Part shown: piece after piece, positions 16,047 to 23,976 of the stretch | Layout: every line of letters begins with the position of its first letter | Position numbering within the stretch: position 1 is the stretch's first letter | Assembly (NCBI GenBank): GCA_002632355.1 | Contig: NSJJ01000015.1 | Coordinates: forward strand, 8,730-72,729 | From: Sulfuricella denitrificans | GTDB lineage: Bacteria; Pseudomonadota; Gammaproteobacteria; Burkholderiales; Sulfuricellaceae | Reading direction: 5' to 3' | DNA length: 64,000 bases | The notes under the pieces: model-generated | What the model was told of the DNA's origin: nothing | Databases searched by the model: none | The model's input: only the letters and a program-made list of their open reading frames with translations | Position numbers and translations under genes: made by a program

Positions 16047-16153
16047 GATTTAACCTGGGTATGGTTGAAAAACAGCATATGGCGCGAAGGCGAATTTTAC
16101 CCCAGAACCAGGCCGCACGATCGCTGCATCCGGCATGCAGTCACCCCAGCAGA

Positions 16154-16177
16154 TATAATGAAATGATTATTTTCATT
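16154..16177 (+). promoter_or_regulatory. TATAAT -10 element overlapped by a 7-7-7 inverted repeat (candidate operator) in the divergent rlhA/hrpB spacer
   Basis: TATAAT at 16154-16159; AATGAAA (16157-16163), N7, TTTCATT (16171-16177). Confidence 0.45.
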
Positions 16178-16195
16178 CCCAGCCCGCCTTCCCAC

Positions 16196-18733
16196 GTGAC
16201 CAGACCCCTTCCCATCGACGCGATCCTGTCCGAGCTGCGCACCGCGCTTGCCGCCCACTCGGCGGTCGTGCTCGAAGCGCCGCCGGGGGCGGGCAAGACC
16301 ACCCGCATCCCGCTCGCCCTGCTCGACGAACCCTGGCTTAGCGGACAGTCCATCGTGATGCTCGAGCCGCGCCGCCTTGCCGCGCGCGGGGCCGCCGTGT
16401 TCATGGCCGCCGAGCTGGGCGAGGAAGCGGGCGAACGGATCGGCTACCGGGTGCGCTTCGAAAACCGGGTGTCGAAACGTACCCGCGTCGAGGTCGTGAC
16501 CGAGGGCATCCTCACCCGCCGCCTGCAGCACGACCCGGAACTGGCCGGCGTGGGGCTGGTGATCTTCGACGAGTTCCACGAGCGCAATCTCCACAGCGAC
16601 CTCGCCCTGGCGCTGTGTCGCGACGCCCAGAGCGGACTGCGCGAGGACCTGAAAATCCTGGTGATGTCAGCCACCCTTGACGGCGCACGCATCTCTGACC
16701 TGCTCGACGCCCCGCTGGTACGCAGCGCGGGGCGCAGCCACCCGGTCGAGGTGCGCTACCGGGCGGGCAGCGGCGCAGCATCCCAGCCCGGAGAGATGGC
16801 CCAGGCCATGGCACGGGCGGTGGCGGACGCCGCCGGCGAAACGGGTGGAGACATCCTCGCCTTCCTCCCCGGTTCCGGCGAAATCCGCCGTGTCGAGGCC
16901 CTGCTCGCCGAACGCGCGGCCCTCCCCGGCGCGCCCCTGGTCCATCCGCTCTACGGCGATCTGCCCTTCGAGCGCCAGCAGGCGGCCATCGCGCCCGATC
17001 CGCAGGGACGGCGCAAGATCATTCTCGCCACGGCCATCGCCGAGACCTCGCTCACCATCGAGGGCATTACCACCGTGATCGACAGCGGCTGGCGGCGGGT
17101 GCCGCGCTTCGACCCGCCGAGCGGGCTGACCCGCCTGGAAACGGTGCGCGTCTCGCGCGCCTCGGCCGAGCAGCGTGCTGGACGCGCCGGGCGTCTCGGG
17201 CCGGGTATCTGCCTGCGGCTGTGGAACGAGGACATCCAGCGCGGCCTGGTCGCCTTCAACATCCCGGAAATCCTCGAAGCCGACCTCGCCCCCCTCGCGC
17301 TCGAACTGGCCCAATGGGGAGTGAACGATGCCGCCACGCTGACCTGGCTCGACCCGCCCCCCGCCGCTGCCCTGGCCCAGGGGCGCGAACTGCTGCAACA
17401 GCTCGAAGCCCTGGACAGTGCCGGACATATCACTGCCCTGGGGCGGGAGATGGCCGGGTTGCCGCTCCATCCGCGCCTCGCCCACATGCTGCTGCGCGGC
17501 CGGGAGATGGGGCTCGGCACCCTCGCCTGCGACATGGCTGCCGTGGCCGCCGGGCGAGACCCGCTACGCGCCCTTGAAGGCGAGCACCGCTGCGATTTCG
17601 CCCTGCGGGTGGAAGCCCTGCGTGCCCATCGCAACCACGGCAACGCCGGGGTGCGCCGTTTCAGCGCCGACCCCAACGCCTGCGCCGCCGCCGAGCGTGC
17701 CGCGCGCCAGTGGCGCCATTTGCTGGGTTTGGAGGCGGAAAACGTCGAGATGGACGAAGCGGCCATCGGCCTGCTCCTCGCCCTGGCTTACCCGGACCGC
17801 ATCGCCCAGCGCCGCAGTGAGGGCGAGGGGCGCTACCTGCTCGCCAACGGGCGCGGCGCCCGGCTGCTGCCGGGCTGTGCCGGCGGCCCGCCGCTGCTGG
17901 TGGCCGCCAGCCTCGACGGCAAGGGCGACGAGGGGCGCATCTTCCTCGCCGCCGCGCTCGACGCGGACGACCTCACGCGGCAGTTCGGCGAGAAACTGGC
18001 GTGGCAGCCGGTGGTGCGCTGGGAGCGCCAGACCCAGGCGGTGCTGGCGCGCGAAGAACGCCGTCTCGGCGCCCTGATGCTGGCGCAACGCCCGCTGCCG
18101 GCGGGTTCCGCCCAAGCGGCGACGGTGCAGGCCATGCTCGACGGTGTGCGCGACCTCGGCGTCGAAGCCTTGCCCTGGAACGAGGAAGCGCGCCAGCTTC
18201 AGGCACGGATCGCCTCGCTGCGGCAGTGGCAGCCCGGCGCCGGCTGGCCCGATCTTTCTGACACCGCATTGCTCGCCTCGCTGGAAGACTGGCTTGCGCC
18301 CTATCTCGAAGGCGTCACCCGGCGCGACCATCTCGCCCGGCTCGACCTGCCCGCTATCCTCAAGGCCCGTCTCGACTGGGACCGGCAGCAGCAACTCGAA
18401 ATCCTCGCCCCAACCCACATCACCGTGCCGAGCGGCTCGCGCAAGCGCCTGGAATATTTCCCCGACGGCGCCCCGCCGGTGCTGGCGGTCAAACTCCAGG
18501 AACTGTTCGGCCTCGCCCGCACCCCCGCCGTCGCCAACGGCCAGGTCGCGCTGATGCTCCACCTGCTCTCCCCCGCCCAGCGCCCGATCCAGGTCACGCG
18601 CGACTTGAAGAATTTCTGGGACCACACCTACCCTGAGGTGAAGAAGGAACTCAAAGGCCGCTACCCCAAACACCCCTGGCCCGACGACCCGTGGAACGCC
18701 ATACCGACGGCGAGGGCCAAGCCGCGCTCATGA
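16196..18733 (+). CDS. hrpB: ATP-dependent RNA helicase HrpB
   Basis: APPGAGKTT, EPRRLAAR, DEFHER, MSAT, ATAIAETSLTIEG, QRAGRAGR and HrpB C-terminus (LAVKLQELFG...KGRYPKHPWPDDP). Likely GTG start at 16196; ORF is open from 16061. Confidence 0.95.
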   Translation: MTRPLPIDAILSELRTALAAHSAVVLEAPPGAGKTTRIPLALLDEPWLSGQSIVMLEPRRLAARGAAVFMAAELGEEAGERIGYRVRFENRVSKRTRVEVVTEGILTRRLQHDPELAGVGLVIFDEFHERNLHSDLALALCRDAQSGLREDLKILVMSATLDGARISDLLDAPLVRSAGRSHPVEVRYRAGSGAASQPGEMAQAMARAVADAAGETGGDILAFLPGSGEIRRVEALLAERAALPGAPLVHPLYGDLPFERQQAAIAPDPQGRRKIILATAIAETSLTIEGITTVIDSGWRRVPRFDPPSGLTRLETVRVSRASAEQRAGRAGRLGPGICLRLWNEDIQRGLVAFNIPEILEADLAPLALELAQWGVNDAATLTWLDPPPAAALAQGRELLQQLEALDSAGHITALGREMAGLPLHPRLAHMLLRGREMGLGTLACDMAAVAAGRDPLRALEGEHRCDFALRVEALRAHRNHGNAGVRRFSADPNACAAAERAARQWRHLLGLEAENVEMDEAAIGLLLALAYPDRIAQRRSEGEGRYLLANGRGARLLPGCAGGPPLLVAASLDGKGDEGRIFLAAALDADDLTRQFGEKLAWQPVVRWERQTQAVLAREERRLGALMLAQRPLPAGSAQAATVQAMLDGVRDLGVEALPWNEEARQLQARIASLRQWQPGAGWPDLSDTALLASLEDWLAPYLEGVTRRDHLARLDLPAILKARLDWDRQQQLEILAPTHITVPSGSRKRLEYFPDGAPPVLAVKLQELFGLARTPAVANGQVALMLHLLSPAQRPIQVTRDLKNFWDHTYPEVKKELKGRYPKHPWPDDPWNAIPTARAKPRS

Positions 18734-18957
18734 AGTGAACGGGTGAAGAATCGGGTTGCAGTTCGCTTTGAAGGGCTGGAGGTCAACCAAAATGGATGTC
18801 GGAGGCACGGGCATGTAGGCGCAGCTATGTGACAGAACCGGATATTGGCATTTGAAATCCAGAGCACTCTGGAATAGTTGATACCAGTATTGGTAATGCC
18901 CCTCTTTGGTTCGTCAATAGAGTTGTATAATCGCCAAGGGGTTTGATTGGATGAAAA

Positions 18958-19992
18958 ATGGCGAGCGCGGAACAAATAAAAGCACTACTTAGGTCACACA
19001 TTGAGGGTGACGAGGGGCGCTTTTTGTCTATTGCCATGCAGGTTGCCGCGCATGAAGCCAAGCTGGGGCATGGAAAACTGGCCGAAGAACTACGGGACAT
19101 GATCGATGCCGCAAAGTCTCGCAGCCAGAAACCGGCTGGAGGCAGTAAGCTGGCTCCGCTCAACAAGCCTCGTGGCGAATTGGTTGGTCTGCTTAGCGTT
19201 TCTTATCCCCAGACTCGCCTTGCCGAAATGATTCTCGACGATACCGTGTCCATGAAGCTCAAGCGCACGATCAAGGAGCAGCGCTTTTTCGCCAAGCTTA
19301 AGGAACATGGATTGTCGCCACGCCGCAAGCTCCTCTTTGTAGGTCCGCCGGGCACCGGTAAGACGATGACTGCAGCAGCGCTTGCGGGGGAGTTGGGTGT
19401 TCCGCTATTTCTGGTTCGTCTCGATGCGCTAATCACGAAATTTATGGGAGAGACTGCGGCCAAGTTGCGGCAGGTTTTTGATGCCATTACCGAAGTGCGA
19501 GGCATTTATTTTTTCGATGAGTTCGACGCTATCGGTTCGCAGCGAGGTATGTCCAACGATGTGGGTGAAATCCGTCGTGTGCTCAATAGCTTTCTGCAAA
19601 TGATCGAGCAGGATCAGTCTCACAGCGTGATTATTGCCGCGACCAACCACCCAGATATTCTCGACTACGCACTGTTCCGCCGCTTCGATGACATGCTCCA
19701 GTATGGCCTGCCCAATCAAGAGCAAATCGTTGCAATACTTAAGGCGAGACTAGCAGGATTCCATGCCAAGCGTTTTGCCTGGAGCAAAATTGCAGAACAC
19801 GCGGTGGGATTAAGCCATGCGGAAATTTCAAGGGCGGCCGACGAGGCGATCAAAGATAGCATCATCCACGACCGCGACACCCTTTCTCAAGCCGATCTGG
19901 TGCGCATGCTGGAAGAACGAAAGTTGATCAGCGGTAAGCTCGCCAACAACGATAGCGAGCCATCAAGCCATGACGAATCAAGCGCAAGATAA
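18958..19992 (+). CDS. AAA+ ATPase, IetA-like partner of S8 protease
   Basis: Walker A GPPGTGKT, Walker B IYFFDEFD, sensor IIAATN, arginine finger FRRFD; overlaps the downstream protease gene by 23 nt. Confidence 0.9.
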   Translation: MASAEQIKALLRSHIEGDEGRFLSIAMQVAAHEAKLGHGKLAEELRDMIDAAKSRSQKPAGGSKLAPLNKPRGELVGLLSVSYPQTRLAEMILDDTVSMKLKRTIKEQRFFAKLKEHGLSPRRKLLFVGPPGTGKTMTAAALAGELGVPLFLVRLDALITKFMGETAAKLRQVFDAITEVRGIYFFDEFDAIGSQRGMSNDVGEIRRVLNSFLQMIEQDQSHSVIIAATNHPDILDYALFRRFDDMLQYGLPNQEQIVAILKARLAGFHAKRFAWSKIAEHAVGLSHAEISRAADEAIKDSIIHDRDTLSQADLVRMLEERKLISGKLANNDSEPSSHDESSAR

Positions 19993-22468
19993 TCGACCGC
20001 ACTTCGTTCTCACAAATACTTCCGAAGCAAAACCTTTCACTGCCTATGGTGGTGGGAGCCAACCACATGTGCCGGAATTGCCACGCGCCCAGCATGGCGC
20101 ATCCCTGCAAACACAAATCCAAACACTCAAGCCAATTGCCGAGCAGGCTGCAGTCGCACAGCACGTTATAGGGCTAGAGGGCGGTATCGGCCTGCAAATT
20201 CAGTTTCAAAGTCAGCCCGGTGTGGCGCTGGCATTTGAGAGTCTCGCCAACGAAACGCAGCACATTGAGTTACTGAGCATCCGACATGAAGGGGAATATA
20301 CCTACGCCAACGTCTTCGTACCCGACGGAAAACTTGAGCATTTCGAAAAGTATGTGACCGAGTATTTGGCAGAGAGAAAAGACAAGAATGACAAGCCGCT
20401 GGATCACAGGGCGCTGCTGGATACTATCGAGACAATACGCGCAGCCGAACTTCGCGCACTGTGGACGGATGACCCGGCGCTGCTTCCGCGAAACCGGGAT
20501 GAGTCATTCTGGTGGGAGGTGTGGTTACCCGAACGCGGAAATCGTGAGCTAGTGGTGGAGGATTTCCGCAAGCTGGCTTCTGCGGTTGGCTGCTCCGTTA
20601 GCGAAAGACGTGTCGACTTTCCGGAGCGAACAGTCGTGATGATGCATGGCTCCGAACGCCAATTTTCCCAGACAGCAATGACGCTTAATTGTGTCGCTGA
20701 GCTACGGCGCGCCAAGGAAACGGCAGAGTTGTTTGACGGAATGGATGCCACGGAGCAACAGGCGTGGAAGGACGAGTTGCTAGCGCGAACAACCTTCCCG
20801 GCTCACCCGGACGATGTGCCCCGAGTCTGCTTGATCGATAGTGGCGTAAATCGTGGTCACCCCCTGCTCTCGCCTGCATTGACCAGCGCTGACATGCACA
20901 CCGTCGAACAGGAATGGGGTAAAAATGACGAGTGCAATCACGGCACAGGCTTGGCCGGCATAGCCGTCTATGGCGACTTAACCGATGCGCTTGCAACGGC
21001 GATGCCCATTCAAATTGATCACCTGCTTGAGTCAGTTAAGCTCACACGGGGCGAGAGAGATAATTCCGGAAACAACGAATTTCATGCCAACCTGTTTGCG
21101 AAAGCAGTAAGCCGTCCCGAGATCGCTGCACCACAACGCATGCGCGTATTCAGCTCGGCGGTGACGGCTACAGATTACCGTGATCGTGGTCGCCCTTCTT
21201 CATGGTCTGCTATGGTGGACTCGCTGGCGGCTGATGTGCCGGGGGGAGGACTTTTCCCTCGACTGATCGTTCAAGCTGCTGGGAATACCAAAGATGGTAG
21301 CGAGTGGCTGGATTATCCAGAAAGTCTTTCGACAAAAAATCTAATTCACGACCCCGGTCAAGCTTGGAATGCACTGACAGTTGGTGCATTCACCGAAAAA
21401 GTTGAAACCGAAAATGGCCAAATTGAACCTATTGCGCCTTTTGGAGGAATCAGTCCGTACACAACGACATCAGCAACTTGGGATAGGGCATGGCCGCTGA
21501 AACCTGACGTTGTTCTTGAAGGCGGGAACGTTGGGAAAAATGATGGGTTCGCAGGGATGTTACCGAGTCTTAGTCTTTTGACCACTCACTTCAAGCCTAC
21601 CGAAAAACTTTTCACCACCACTAACGCCACCAGCGCCGCATCCGCCTTGTGTTCCCGCATGGCGGCGCAATTGATGGCGGCATATCCACAACTTAGGCCA
21701 GAAACTATTCGTGCGCTCATAGTTCATTCCTCTGAGTGGACCGAAGCTATGCGCAAAATGTATTTGCCAGAGGAGAGATCCCACAACAAGAACGATTACG
21801 CCAACCTTATCCGGCATTGCGGCTGGGGAGTGCCTGATCTGGAAAGAGCATTATGGAGTGCTGCCAATTCGCTGACACTGATTGTCGAAGACATCGTTCA
21901 CCCATACAAAAAAGACGGGAGCACGATCAAGACTCGAGATATGAATCTGCATGCACTGCCTTGGCCCCAAGACGAGCTGGAAGCGCTCGGCGCAACCCAA
22001 GTACAAATGAGAGTCACACTCTCCTATTTCATCGAGCCAAATCCATCCGCTCGCGGCTCAGCATCGAAATACCATTACCCTTCCCACCGCTTACGATTCG
22101 ATGTGCGCCATCACCTTGAATCGGAAGAGGACTTCCTTGCACGAATCAACGCCGCTGCTGCACTTGAGGAAGAAGATAATCAACACGCGAACCCCAAAGA
22201 CCCCGATTGGCGCTTGGGCGAACGTCGACGGCATAGAGGTTCACTACATCAGGATATATGGGAAGGCTCTGCGGCAGACTTGGCCAGTCGAGGCTGTCTT
22301 GCGGTCTATCCCTCATTGGGCTGGTGGCGCACTCGCCCAAAACTAGGCCGTTACAACCTGCCGGCCCACTACACTCTGATCGTCTCCATTCGTGCACCAG
22401 AAACGGAAATTGATCTTTATAGTGCAATCGCAGCAAAAATACAGACCCCGGTTATTATTCCAGCTTGA
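19970..22468 (+). CDS. S8 subtilisin-like serine protease, IetS/Y4bN-like
   Basis: Catalytic Asp (RVCLIDSGV), His (NHGTGLAG), oxyanion Asn (QAAGN), Ser (NATSAASA); KPDVVLEGGN and GWGVPDLERAL family motifs. Confidence 0.9.
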   Translation: MTNQAQDNRPHFVLTNTSEAKPFTAYGGGSQPHVPELPRAQHGASLQTQIQTLKPIAEQAAVAQHVIGLEGGIGLQIQFQSQPGVALAFESLANETQHIELLSIRHEGEYTYANVFVPDGKLEHFEKYVTEYLAERKDKNDKPLDHRALLDTIETIRAAELRALWTDDPALLPRNRDESFWWEVWLPERGNRELVVEDFRKLASAVGCSVSERRVDFPERTVVMMHGSERQFSQTAMTLNCVAELRRAKETAELFDGMDATEQQAWKDELLARTTFPAHPDDVPRVCLIDSGVNRGHPLLSPALTSADMHTVEQEWGKNDECNHGTGLAGIAVYGDLTDALATAMPIQIDHLLESVKLTRGERDNSGNNEFHANLFAKAVSRPEIAAPQRMRVFSSAVTATDYRDRGRPSSWSAMVDSLAADVPGGGLFPRLIVQAAGNTKDGSEWLDYPESLSTKNLIHDPGQAWNALTVGAFTEKVETENGQIEPIAPFGGISPYTTTSATWDRAWPLKPDVVLEGGNVGKNDGFAGMLPSLSLLTTHFKPTEKLFTTTNATSAASALCSRMAAQLMAAYPQLRPETIRALIVHSSEWTEAMRKMYLPEERSHNKNDYANLIRHCGWGVPDLERALWSAANSLTLIVEDIVHPYKKDGSTIKTRDMNLHALPWPQDELEALGATQVQMRVTLSYFIEPNPSARGSASKYHYPSHRLRFDVRHHLESEEDFLARINAAAALEEEDNQHANPKDPDWRLGERRRHRGSLHQDIWEGSAADLASRGCLAVYPSLGWWRTRPKLGRYNLPAHYTLIVSIRAPETEIDLYSAIAAKIQTPVIIPA

Positions 22469-22641
22469 TAGTTCGCGTTGAACTCCGCTTAGGATCGGTA
22501 TCAGCCATCCAAGTTGAGAGTTCAAATATGTCGGCTTTGGCCGAACTCCGGTCACTCTGGAGATCCCAGCCTACTCTACCGCCCAAGGTGTATTTGAATA
22601 ATTACTTAAGGCCAGTTGCGCCGACTCGACGCAGGACACCT

Positions 22642-22842
22642 TCAGCGCGCCAGCTTGCGTGCCACCGGTCGCTGCTTGGTCTTGCCAGCCATGCGAGCTT
22701 CCAGATAGTCGCGCATTTCCTGCCACGGGATGGTTTTGCCGACCGCCACGATGCCGGCATAGCGACTTTCAGCCAGGGCATCGAAATGGGCGCGGCGTTC
22801 GGTTTGCTCGGTAATTGCTTCGAGAATGAAGCCATGAGCCAT
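22642..22842 (-). pseudogene. N-terminally truncated CopG/RHH-family antitoxin
   Basis: Translates as AHGFILEAI...RRAHFDALAESRYAGIVAVGKTIPWQEMRDYLEARMAGK...RPVARKLAR, recalled as the C-terminal part of RHH antitoxins paired with RelE/ParE toxins. The N-terminal RHH strand and helix are missing. Confidence 0.65.
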
Positions 22843-22878
22843 CGATCCGGTACCGTGCCTCATTCCGGCTGTCACTAT

Positions 22879-23976
22879 TCAGGAGGCGTCGAGCATGCGC
22901 TGCAGTGACAGGCGCGCCATTTCGGCTTCCTGTGCCGGCACCTTGATCTGGTTGACCACCTTGCCTTCCACCAGATTTTCCAGGATCCAGGCCAGGTGCT
23001 GCGGGTCGATGCGCGCCATGGTGGAGCACATGCACACCGTCGAGGACATGAACTGCACCAGCTTGCCTTCCGGCTTGAAGCGGTTCGCCAGGCGGTTGAC
23101 CAGGTTCAGTTCGGTGCCGACCAGCCATTTCGTGCCGGGCGCGGATTCGGCGATGGTCTTGATGATGTATTCGGTGGAGCCGACGTAATCGGACAACTGG
23201 CACACCTCGAAGCTGCACTCGGGGTGGGAAATCACCAGCCCGTCCGGGTGCTGGGCGCGGAACTTCTCGATGTGCTGCGGCTGGAACATCTGGTGCACCG
23301 AGCACAGGCCTTTCCATAAAATAATCCTGGCCTTCCTGATCTGCTCCGGCGTCAGCCCGCCCATCGGCTGGTCGTAGTCCCACAGCACCATTTCGTCGAG
23401 CGGGATGCCCATCTTGAAGCCGCTCCAGCGCCCCAGGTTCTGGTCGGGGAAGAACAGCACCTTCTCGCGCCGGGCGAAGGACCATTCGAGGATTCTGGTG
23501 GCGTTGCTGGAAGTGCAGACGATGCCGCCGTGTTCGCCGCAGAAGGCTTTCAGGTCGGCGGCGGAATTGATGTAGGTCACCGGCGTGACGCTTTCGTCGG
23601 GATCGAGCACCGTTTTCAGCTCGCGCCAGGCGCGCTCGACCTTGGCCAGGCTTGCCATGTCTGCCATGGAACAGCCGGCGGAAAGATCGGGCAGGATGGA
23701 AATCTGTTCAGGACGCGAGAGGATGTCCGCCACTTCGGCCATGAAATGCACGCCGCAAAAAACGATGTATTCCGCCTCGGAAGAAGCCGCCTGGCGCGAA
23801 AGCTTGAGCGAGTCGCCGGTAAAATCGGCATGGCAGATCACGTCGTCGCGCTGGTAATGATGCCCCAGAATGACCAGACGTTTGCCCAGTCTGGCCTTGG
23901 CGGCAAGGATGCGGGCCTGGCAGTCGCCGTCCTGCATCTGGCTGAACTTGTCGAAGGTAATGGGACTGACTTGCAT
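22879..23976 (-). CDS. nadA: Quinolinate synthase
   Basis: ILGHHYQ, FCGVHFMAE, AGCSMAD, YINSAA, CSVH and HPEC motifs. Confidence 0.95.
   Translation of the reverse strand: MQVSPITFDKFSQMQDGDCQARILAAKARLGKRLVILGHHYQRDDVICHADFTGDSLKLSRQAASSEAEYIVFCGVHFMAEVADILSRPEQISILPDLSAGCSMADMASLAKVERAWRELKTVLDPDESVTPVTYINSAADLKAFCGEHGGIVCTSSNATRILEWSFARREKVLFFPDQNLGRWSGFKMGIPLDEMVLWDYDQPMGGLTPEQIRKARIILWKGLCSVHQMFQPQHIEKFRAQHPDGLVISHPECSFEVCQLSDYVGSTEYIIKTIAESAPGTKWLVGTELNLVNRLANRFKPEGKLVQFMSSTVCMCSTMARIDPQHLAWILENLVEGKVVNQIKVPAQEAEMARLSLQRMLDAS

What the first reader, a model, noticed from the sequence alone, without database searches (positions are those of the whole stretch)
18958..22468. AAA-ATPase plus subtilisin-like protease pair: IetAS-type toxin-antitoxin / anti-phage module
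Seen: two overlapping genes with intact Walker A/B and arginine finger, and a full Asp-His-Ser triad. The protease has no signal peptide and a long N-terminal region. GC is lower than both flanks, and a TATAAT lies at 18926-18931. Known: IetAS was described as a plasmid-stabilising toxin-antitoxin pair in Agrobacterium, and homologues were later reported to confer phage resistance. To my knowledge the protease target and trigger are unresolved. The nucleophile context is ATSAA rather than the usual GTSxA.
Basis: partly seen in the sequence, partly recalled or inferred. Interest (0 to 1): 0.62.

Follow-up and report, generated by a model that had tools for sequence, protein, structure and literature searches.

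The report
IetAS protease-ATPase defence gene pair
Two overlapping genes form an intact, horizontally acquired copy of IetAS, a known pair in which an ATP-driven partner restrains a toxic internal protease, so this is a correct identification of an ordinary system.

Summary
ietA (18958-19992, 344 aa) and ietS (19970-22468, 832 aa) overlap by 23 nt.

- The pair aligns end to end with the founding IetA/IetS of Agrobacterium plasmid pTiC58 (56% and 41% identity).
- It scores higher on the PADLOC IetA/IetS models than the founding pair does.
- The 'unusual' ATSAA nucleophile context is normal for the family: only 11 of 74 representatives have Gly there.

- The pair is the only cargo of a 3.8-kb low-GC insert (GC3 0.52-0.58 against 0.84 in the flanks).
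- The hrpB-nadA slot it occupies holds a restriction-modification system, a Schlafen-like gene or an unknown gene in sister species.
- The TATAAT box keeps its position in four independent copies of the module.
- IetA has invariant pore loops and folds like p97, PAN and FtsH unfoldases.
- The IetS N-terminal region is modelled as two propeptide-like domains.

The protease substrate is unknown. The trigger is unknown for this clade. This scan has already noted IetAS in at least 189 other genomes. Verdict: new member of a known kind, low interest.

The parts
18761..22530 (.). Inserted low-GC islet between the core genes hrpB and nadA. IetAS is its only cargo.
   Evidence: Sequence shared with sister species stops at 18755-18760, 22-27 nt after the hrpB stop. 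It resumes at 22531 (G038) or at 22858-22879 in the others. GC3 is 0.52-0.58 against 0.84 in both flanking genes.
18924..18931 (+). Probable -10 promoter element, TGTATAAT (the TATAAT is at 18926-18931), carried with the module
   Evidence: Read directly. TGTA(T/C)AAT lies at the same distance from the ATG in independent copies L039/L040, L009 and L035. No good -35.
18947..18952 (+). Ribosome-binding region TTGGAT (TTGGAG in homologues), ending 5 nt before the ietA ATG
   Evidence: Conserved block in the alignment of upstream regions.
18958..19992 (+). ietA: 344-aa classical-clade AAA+ ATPase, the predicted antitoxin. It has an N-terminal three-helix bundle (4-56), an ATPase core (about 79-250) and a helical lid (254-330).
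   Evidence: Pfam AAA 1.1e-31. PADLOC IetA 1.2e-78. 56% identical to pTiC58 IetA. Motifs. AF2 model pLDDT 75. Nearest folds are p97 D2, PAN/Rpt and FtsH. The start at 18958 is supported by invariant M1-A2-S3-A4 in homologues.
19970..22468 (+). ietS: 832-aa cytoplasmic S8 subtilase, the predicted toxin. It has an N-terminal Y4kK_N region (1 to about 275), a catalytic domain (285-620; D290, H324, N439, S555) and a conserved C-terminal domain (about 625-832).
   Evidence: Pfam Peptidase_S8 1.6e-51. PADLOC IetS 6.8e-37. 41% identical over the full length to pTiC58 IetS. Triad invariant. AF2 model pLDDT 82, pTM 0.72. Best folds are pro-subtilases with C-terminal beta domains. The start at 19970 is supported by conserved H11 (69 of 74 representatives in A1, 114 of 114 in A2) and full coverage in homologues.

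Best explanation
This is an intact chromosomal copy of the IetAS two-gene module, acquired by horizontal transfer into a variable slot between hrpB and nadA.

Shown here:
- Both genes are complete, translationally coupled and homologous over their whole length to IetA/IetS of pTiC58.
- All catalytic residues are present.
- The protease has no export signal.
- The ATPase has the conserved pore loops and the fold of protein-unfolding AAA+ machines.
- The module carries its own conserved -10 box.

Inferred from experiments on homologues (pTiC58 IetAS, SGI1 SgiAT, Mycoplasma A132/T133, B. cereus and E. coli ietAS):
- IetS is a toxic intracellular protease.
- IetA, probably as an ATP-hydrolysing hexamer, keeps it harmless in uninfected cells.
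- A phage protein or a phage-induced disturbance breaks this restraint. IetS then cleaves essential cell or phage proteins, and the infected cell stops growing or dies before phage are released (abortive infection).
- The same toxin-antitoxin logic makes the module hard to lose.

My own inference on how the restraint works: IetA engages IetS through its pore loops and acts on the N-terminal, propeptide-like part of IetS, holding the enzyme in a zymogen-like or partly unfolded state. The substrate, and the trigger in this host, are unknown.
For: - ORFs and overlap.
- Families.
- Homology to the pTiC58 pair.
- Control: the founding pair scores lower than this pair on the same PADLOC and NCBIfam models.
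- Tree: this protease and pTiC58 IetS fall in one well-supported clade, with more distant AAA-linked S8 proteins outside it.
- Family size: 3865 clusters at E<=1e-3 and 1134 at E<=1e-30.
- The AAA gene lies immediately upstream of the S8 gene in every homologous locus inspected.
- Catalytic residues are invariant.
- Foreign composition and insertion boundaries.
- Patchy presence: 1 of 14 other genomes of the genus and 4 of 39 of the family.
- Defence-type neighbours and slot-mates: a type I R-M system next to the closest named homologue; an R-M system and a Schlafen/AlbA_2 gene in the same slot in sister species.
- Literature: toxin-antitoxin function of homologues (PMC5006074; PMC8562856); abortive infection and the YosG trigger; protease activity needed for defence and ietA mutants not obtainable (PMC13069673).
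- Unfoldase-like fold of IetA.
Against: - No experiment exists on this copy or on its 57-93% identical clade. The tested systems are 36-41% identical at the protease level, or more distant.
- Both proteins score far below NCBIfam's equivalog cut-offs (IteA 217 bits against 510; IteS 70 against 900). They are therefore not equivalogs of the system on which those models were built.
- The step 'IetA acts on the IetS N-terminal region' rests only on a predicted secondary-structure pattern and on Foldseek matches with poor global rmsd (22-25 A).
Confidence: 0.85

Rival explanations
1. The pair is purely a selfish addiction (toxin-antitoxin) module that stabilises itself in the chromosome and has no role in phage defence in this host.
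For: The founding pTiC58 system and SGI1 SgiAT were described as stability determinants. The Mycoplasma pair is a chromosomal toxin-antitoxin system with no known phage link. The islet carries nothing else.
Against: Homologues from B. cereus and E. coli protect against phages. The same slot holds an R-M system and a Schlafen-like gene in sister species. The closest named homologue lies beside a type I R-M system. The two roles do not exclude each other.
Confidence: 0.2
2. The pair is a housekeeping protein-quality-control machine, an unfoldase feeding a protease in the manner of ClpXP, FtsH or PAN-proteasome.
For: IetA resembles FtsH, PAN and p97 in sequence and fold and keeps its pore loops.
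Against: It is present in only 1 of 14 other genomes of the genus. Its codon composition is foreign. It is often carried on plasmids. Homologous proteases are toxic when expressed alone. A subtilase is not a self-compartmentalised protease.
Confidence: 0.03
3. The pair is secretion-linked, analogous to mycosin and EccA of type VII secretion, or it is an exported subtilase with a dedicated chaperone.
For: Weak NCBIfam hits to T7SS mycosin (33 bits) and EccA (51 bits).
Against: Both hits are far below their cut-offs (279 and 467 bits). There is no signal peptide or membrane anchor. No secretion genes lie in the islet. IetA/IetS models score far better.
Confidence: 0.02
4. It is a silent or decaying remnant that is no longer expressed.
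For: There is no transcription evidence and the -35 is poor.
Against: Both frames are intact over the full length. All invariant family residues are present. The -10 box and ribosome-binding site are conserved.
Confidence: 0.05

Closest known systems
IetA/IetS of Agrobacterium Ti plasmid pTiC58 (Yamamoto et al. 2009, J Bacteriol 191:4656, as cited in PMC5006074 and PMC13069673; genes ATU_RS23410 and ATU_RS23415 in NC_003065.3)
   Same: Same gene order, sizes (328/836 aa against 344/832 aa), domain layout and catalytic residues. Alignment is full-length at 56% (IetA) and 41% (IetS) identity. Both proteases fall in one clade of the family tree.
   Different: This copy is chromosomal, not on a plasmid. 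Its genes overlap by 23 nt, whereas the pTiC58 genes are 3 nt apart. There is no DUF6088 gene upstream. The precomputed Pfam Y4kK_N model (PF27160) hits this clade but not the pTiC58 clade.
The same pair on Klebsiella, E. coli and Serratia IncF plasmids (for example NZ_CP083037.1)
   Same: These are the nearest annotated relatives: IetS 57% identical over the full length, the same 23-nt overlap, and the same starred clade in the tree.
   Different: They are carried on plasmids and flanked by IS elements. I know of no experiment on them.
SgiAT of Salmonella Genomic Island 1 (PMC5006074)
   Same: An AAA-ATPase antitoxin with a subtilase toxin, proven by toxicity and neutralisation tests in E. 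coli. It sits on an integrated element, not a plasmid.
   Different: It is reported as 50% and 36% identical to pTiC58 IetA and IetS. Its sequence was not compared here.
ietAS anti-phage systems (Gao et al. 2020; B. cereus m1293 in bioRxiv 10.1101/2022.08.27.505566; E. coli ECOR52 in 10.1101/2022.08.21.504612; the ietHAS variant in PMC13069673)
   Same: Same two-gene architecture. PADLOC and NCBIfam models built on these systems give this pair as their top hit.
   Different: This pair scores far below the NCBIfam equivalog cut-offs, so it belongs to a different subfamily. There is no SNF2 helicase partner. The upstream hrpB helicase is a core gene, 89-92% identical in sister species that lack IetAS.
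Mycoplasma mycoides A132/T133 AAA-ATPase/subtilase toxin-antitoxin pair (PMC8562856)
   Same: A chromosomal AAA antitoxin with an S8 toxin. Deleting the antitoxin alone is lethal.
   Different: It comes from a distant lineage and has a smaller toxin (757 aa). It was not compared by sequence here.

Membership tests
IetAS (PADLOC IetAS / DefenseFinder Gao_Iet) | Two adjacent co-directional genes, with the AAA+ ATPase directly upstream of an S8 peptidase | tested here: met
   18958-19992 and 19970-22468, same strand, 23-nt overlap.
IetAS (PADLOC IetAS / DefenseFinder Gao_Iet) | The ATPase matches IetA profiles and the founding IetA over its full length | tested here: met
   PDLC02196 at 1.2e-78, residues 2-325. 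56% identity to pTiC58 IetA over 323 residues, E 4e-129. pTiC58 IetA itself scores lower on the same model, 239 bits against 263.
IetAS (PADLOC IetAS / DefenseFinder Gao_Iet) | The protease matches IetS profiles and the founding IetS over its full length, including the N- and C-terminal domains | tested here: met
   PDLC02198 at 6.8e-37, residues 60-780. 41% identity to pTiC58 IetS over residues 10-824, E 2e-179. pTiC58 IetS scores 85.6 bits against 124.8 here.
IetAS (PADLOC IetAS / DefenseFinder Gao_Iet) | Intact ATPase motifs and an intact Asp-His-Ser triad | tested here: met
IetAS (PADLOC IetAS / DefenseFinder Gao_Iet) | The protease is cytoplasmic (no signal peptide or membrane anchor) | tested here: met
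   No hydrophobic segment; the highest 19-residue Kyte-Doolittle mean is 1.09. This is a crude test, not a dedicated predictor.
IetAS (PADLOC IetAS / DefenseFinder Gao_Iet) | The protease is toxic alone and is neutralised by the ATPase | not testable with these tools
   Known only for homologues.
IetAS (PADLOC IetAS / DefenseFinder Gao_Iet) | Confers phage resistance that depends on the protease active site | not testable with these tools
   Known only for distant homologues.
NCBIfam equivalogs IteA_antiphage (NF042959) and IteS_antiphage (NF042956) | Whole-protein score at or above the curated cut-off (510 and 900 bits) | tested here: not met
   216.6 and 69.7 bits. The founding pTiC58 pair also fails, at 198.8 bits and no hit. 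These models therefore define a narrower subfamily.
ietHAS (helicase-containing variant, PMC13069673) | An SNF2-family helicase gene as a third component of the operon | tested here: not met
   The upstream gene is HrpB, a DEAH helicase with GC3 of 0.845. It is a core gene present in sister species without IetAS.

The most novel reading that the evidence does not exclude
IetS may be an intracellular zymogen. In the model, its Y4kK_N region folds as a long helix followed by two beta-alpha-beta-beta-alpha-beta units of the kind that forms the inhibitory propeptide of secreted subtilases. IetA, a pore-loop-bearing unfoldase, would control the protease by acting on these units. Antitoxin action and the phage trigger would then converge on propeptide handling. 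Separately, the hrpB-nadA slot may be a genus-wide defence hotspot, and its 782-aa cargo of unknown family in one sister species may be an undescribed defence gene.
Probability: 0.25. Interest if true: 0.55.

Novelty: new member of a known kind. Interest (0 to 1): 0.2.

Why it matters
On its own this adds one more intact IetAS copy, in a chemolithotrophic betaproteobacterium. The nearest homologues are named Gallionella or Gallionellaceae; the organism itself was not identified.

The modest value lies in three points.
- It shows a clean case of a two-gene defence module, with its own promoter, swapped into a fixed chromosomal slot.
- It documents family-wide invariants outside the catalytic triad: the IetA pore loops; IetS H11, H42, E183, E244 and R246; and the C-terminal S685, S758-x-H760-x-D762 and W785.
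- It offers a testable structural idea for how the ATPase restrains the protease, which published work still calls unknown.

Tried and rejected
- Sequence search of IetS against PDB chains found nothing at E<=1e-3. A family profile reached only the Asp/His and Ser motifs of ordinary subtilisins. No IetS-like structure is solved.
- Pfam scans of the N-terminal (1-280) and C-terminal (625-832) parts alone gave nothing usable. The local Pfam copy lacks PF27160.
- Rfam found no RNA family in the islet or in the slots of sister species. ARAGORN found no tRNA or tmRNA within 10 kb.
- There are no convincing flanking direct or inverted repeats and no integrase or transposase in the islet. How it was inserted remains unknown.
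- Generic promoter and terminator scans were at background level.
- A 16-nt palindrome at 18858-18873 is not shared by homologous modules, so I do not call it an operator.
- The BFVD fold search gave only generic viral subtilases.
- The original papers (Yamamoto 2009, Gao 2020) are not held in the library. They are cited through papers that cite them.
- The mycosin/EccA resemblance was considered and rejected (see rival explanations).
Full report
**1. What is in the sequence**

The second ATG lies 23 nt before the TAA stop of the first, so the genes are translationally coupled.

The first protein carries a single classical AAA module (Pfam PF00004, 1.1e-31). Its motifs are Walker A GPPGTGKT (129-136), Walker B IYFFDE (183-188), sensor-1 N230, arginine fingers R241/R242, and pore loop 1 K161-F-M-G-E165.

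The second protein carries a Peptidase_S8 domain at 285-620 (1.6e-51). Its catalytic residues are D290, H324, oxyanion N439 and S555. It has no hydrophobic N-terminus or membrane segment.

Both genes have 0.531 GC and GC3 of 0.58 and 0.52. The flanking hrpB and nadA have GC3 of 0.845 and 0.839. TATAAT is at 18926-18931.

**2. Identity**

PADLOC's best hits are IetA (PDLC02196, 1.2e-78, residues 2-325) and IetS (PDLC02198, 6.8e-37, residues 60-780). NCBIfam's best hits are IteA_antiphage and IteS_antiphage, but far below their equivalog cut-offs: 217 against 510 bits and 70 against 900.

To judge what those modest scores mean, I fetched the name-giving pair. A tblastn against plasmids found 495 records, including Agrobacterium Ti plasmids. 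The protein on pTi1D1460 is 100% identical to the one encoded at 98863-101373 of pTiC58 itself (NC_003065.3), which lies directly after an 'ATP-binding protein' gene.

Against this founding pair, the window's IetA is 56% identical over 323 residues (E 4e-129). Its IetS is 41% identical over residues 10-824 (E 2e-179).

As a control, the pTiC58 proteins score lower than the window's on the same PADLOC models (239 against 263 bits; 85.6 against 124.8). They also score lower on the NCBIfam models (199 against 217 bits; no hit against 70). The NCBIfam equivalogs therefore define a narrow subfamily, and failing them does not argue against IetAS membership.

For comparison, SGI1's SgiAT is a proven toxin-antitoxin pair and is reported as only 50% and 36% identical to pTiC58 IetA and IetS (PMC5006074).

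**3. The family**

An exhaustive HMMER search of 1.84 billion cluster representatives found 3865 clusters at E<=1e-3 and 1134 at E<=1e-30. Nearly all of the best 150 are full-length at about 820-850 aa.

In an alignment of 74 representatives, D290, H324 and S555 are invariant and N439 nearly so. The residue before Thr-Ser is A in 27, D in 21, G in 11, E in 8 and M in 7.

Further residues are invariant or nearly so outside the catalytic domain:
- H11, H42, E183, E244 and R246 in the N-terminal region.
- S685, W747, S758-x-H760-x-D762 and W785 in the C-terminal domain.

These mark functionally constrained surfaces of unknown role.

A FastTree of these proteins puts the window's protease in a 100%-supported group with the Klebsiella/E. 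coli IncF-plasmid version (57% identity). Both this group and pTiC58 IetS lie inside one 100%-supported clade. More distant AAA-linked S8 proteins from Pseudomonas and Synechocystis plasmids fall outside it.

In every homologous locus I inspected, the AAA gene lies immediately upstream of the S8 gene, while the neighbours differ. In this clade the two genes usually overlap by 11-26 nt.

IetA is even more conserved. Walker motifs, both arginines, pore loop 1 (K-F/Y-M-G-E-T) and the whole 200-215 segment NDVGEIRRVLNSFLQM are invariant in 37-50 sequences.

**4. Gene starts**

The protein database holds this genome's own calls as 799 aa and 322 aa (P0001, P0123). Those calls start at an internal GTG and an internal TTG. 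Homologues align from residue 1 of the longer forms. H11 of IetS is conserved (69 of 74 representatives, 114 of 114 in the second alignment) and M1-A2-S3-A4 of IetA is invariant.

**5. Genomic setting**

The window is contig 9 of a 3.09-Mb, 36-contig genome. The nearest homologues are named Gallionella or Gallionellaceae.

Upstream lies HrpB (16061-18733). Downstream on the other strand lie a 77-aa ORF and NadA.

IetS is found in only 1 of 14 other genomes of the genus and 4 of 39 of the family.

In sister species, sequence shared with the window stops at 18755-18760. It resumes at 22531 in one species, or at the nadA stop in the others. The insert is therefore about 18761-22530.

The nucleotide similarity (about 80%) to IetAS copies in other family members spans 18945/18955-22468, which is just the two genes.

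hrpB and nadA are neighbours in three sister species, and the gap between them holds different cargo in each:
- G036: a Dcm-type methyltransferase fused to an HNH domain, plus an EcoRII-C fragment.
- G035: a 392-aa Schlafen/AlbA_2 protein (PADLOC candidate PDC-S50).
- G038: a 782-aa protein with no family hit.

The slot therefore behaves as a small defence hotspot.

The closest named homologue, in a Gallionella MAG, sits beside a type I R-M system. Other homologues sit beside a CHAT-domain giant protein with an integrase nearby, or beside a HigBA-like pair.

HrpB is not an analogue of the IetH helicase of the ietHAS variant. It is a core gene, 89-92% identical in species without IetAS, with native GC3.

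No tRNA, Rfam family, integrase or flanking repeat marks the insert.

**6. Promoter**

The generic scan is at background level and does not score the site, because there is no good -35. However, aligning the 80 nt before ietA from four independent genomic contexts shows two conserved blocks with fixed spacing. One is CAAT-n5-TGTA(T/C)AAT. The other is TTGGAG, 5-6 nt before the ATG.

Earlier notes of this scan reported operator-like promoter repeats in other IetAS clades. I found none conserved here. The palindrome at 18858-18873 is private to this copy.

**7. Structure-based anatomy**

The AlphaFold2 model of IetS was built on 114 homologues (mean pLDDT 82, pTM 0.72). It shows:
- a long helix at 39-67;
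- two units with beta-alpha-beta-beta-alpha-beta order at about 74-158 and 179-247;
- a helical linker;
- the catalytic domain from 285;
- a mostly beta C-terminal domain at 634-808.

Foldseek against the PDB gives subtilases that carry propeptides and C-terminal beta domains as the best matches: ProN-Tk-SP (3afg, 1.8e-18), KP-43, EpiP, unprocessed pro-subtilisin E, and furin/Kex2. For the pro-forms the global rmsd is poor (22-25 A). The propeptide reading of the N-terminal units is therefore a hypothesis, not a result. No IetS structure is in the PDB up to April 2026.

The IetA model (pLDDT 75) has an N-terminal three-helix bundle, an AAA+ core and a lid. Its nearest folds are p97 D2, PAN/Rpt and FtsH (TM up to 0.85 on the target; sequence hits). 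All of these are protein unfoldases.

**8. Mechanism**

From the literature:
- ietAS-type pairs are toxin-antitoxin systems in which the protease is the toxin and the ATPase the antitoxin.
- The B. cereus system defends by abortive infection and becomes toxic when SPbeta YosG is expressed.
- Protease activity is required for defence, and ietA mutants could not be built.
- The anti-phage mechanism 'remains unknown' as of April 2026.

For this copy I therefore propose the following. IetA hexamers use ATP and their pore loops to keep cytoplasmic IetS inactive, most plausibly by engaging its propeptide-like N-terminal region. Infection removes or overloads IetA, and IetS then degrades essential proteins.

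The first part, membership with intact parts, is shown. The toxin-antitoxin and abortive-infection logic is inferred from homologues that are 36-56% identical or more distant. The propeptide-handling step is my own inference.

**9. Verdict**

The system is known and very common, and this scan has already noted it 225 times in at least 189 genomes. This is a new member of a known kind. Its interest is low, slightly raised by the hotspot context and the structural lead.

Noticed in passing
window 18734-22878; L030 (G035), L031 (G036), L032 (G038): The gap between the core genes hrpB and nadA is a variable slot in this genus. It holds IetAS here, a Dcm-type methylase-HNH fusion plus an EcoRII-C fragment in G036, and a Schlafen/AlbA_2 protein (PADLOC PDC-S50) in G035. 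In G038 it holds an unknown protein. In G026 the two genes are not adjacent.
   Followed up: partly
L032 429-2777 (+): A 782-aa protein occupies the same slot in a sister species. It has no Pfam or PADLOC hit, and its position makes it a candidate undescribed defence gene.
   Followed up: no
window 18958-19026 and 19970-20068: The public gene calls for this genome start later: IetA at 322 aa from an internal TTG, and IetS at 799 aa from an internal GTG. Conserved N-terminal residues in homologues support the longer forms.
   Followed up: yes
window 18858-18873: A 16-nt palindrome, TCCAGAG-CA-CTCTGGA, lies about 55 nt upstream of the -10 box. It is not found upstream of homologous modules, so its role is unclear.
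   Followed up: partly
window 22642-22875 (-): A 77-aa ORF lies just downstream of nadA. It has native-like GC (0.607) and is conserved at the DNA level in two sister species (L015, L020), but has no Pfam hit.
   Followed up: partly
L002 2141-2734; L041 969-1559: A DUF6088 gene lies just upstream of the IetAS pair on both pTiC58-type Ti plasmids and a Pseudomonas aeruginosa plasmid whose protease is only 24% identical to this one. It may be a recurrent accessory gene. It is absent here.
   Followed up: no
L030 509-808 and L031 3929-4252: A stretch of about 300 nt next to nadA is shared by two sister species but absent from the window. It has no Rfam match.
   Followed up: partly
IetS residues 685, 747, 758-762, 785-786 (window about 22022-22330): The C-terminal domain of IetS carries invariant or nearly invariant residues across 74 diverse representatives (S685, W747, S758-x-H760-x-D762, W785, W786). 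It has no Pfam model and no obvious role.
   Followed up: no
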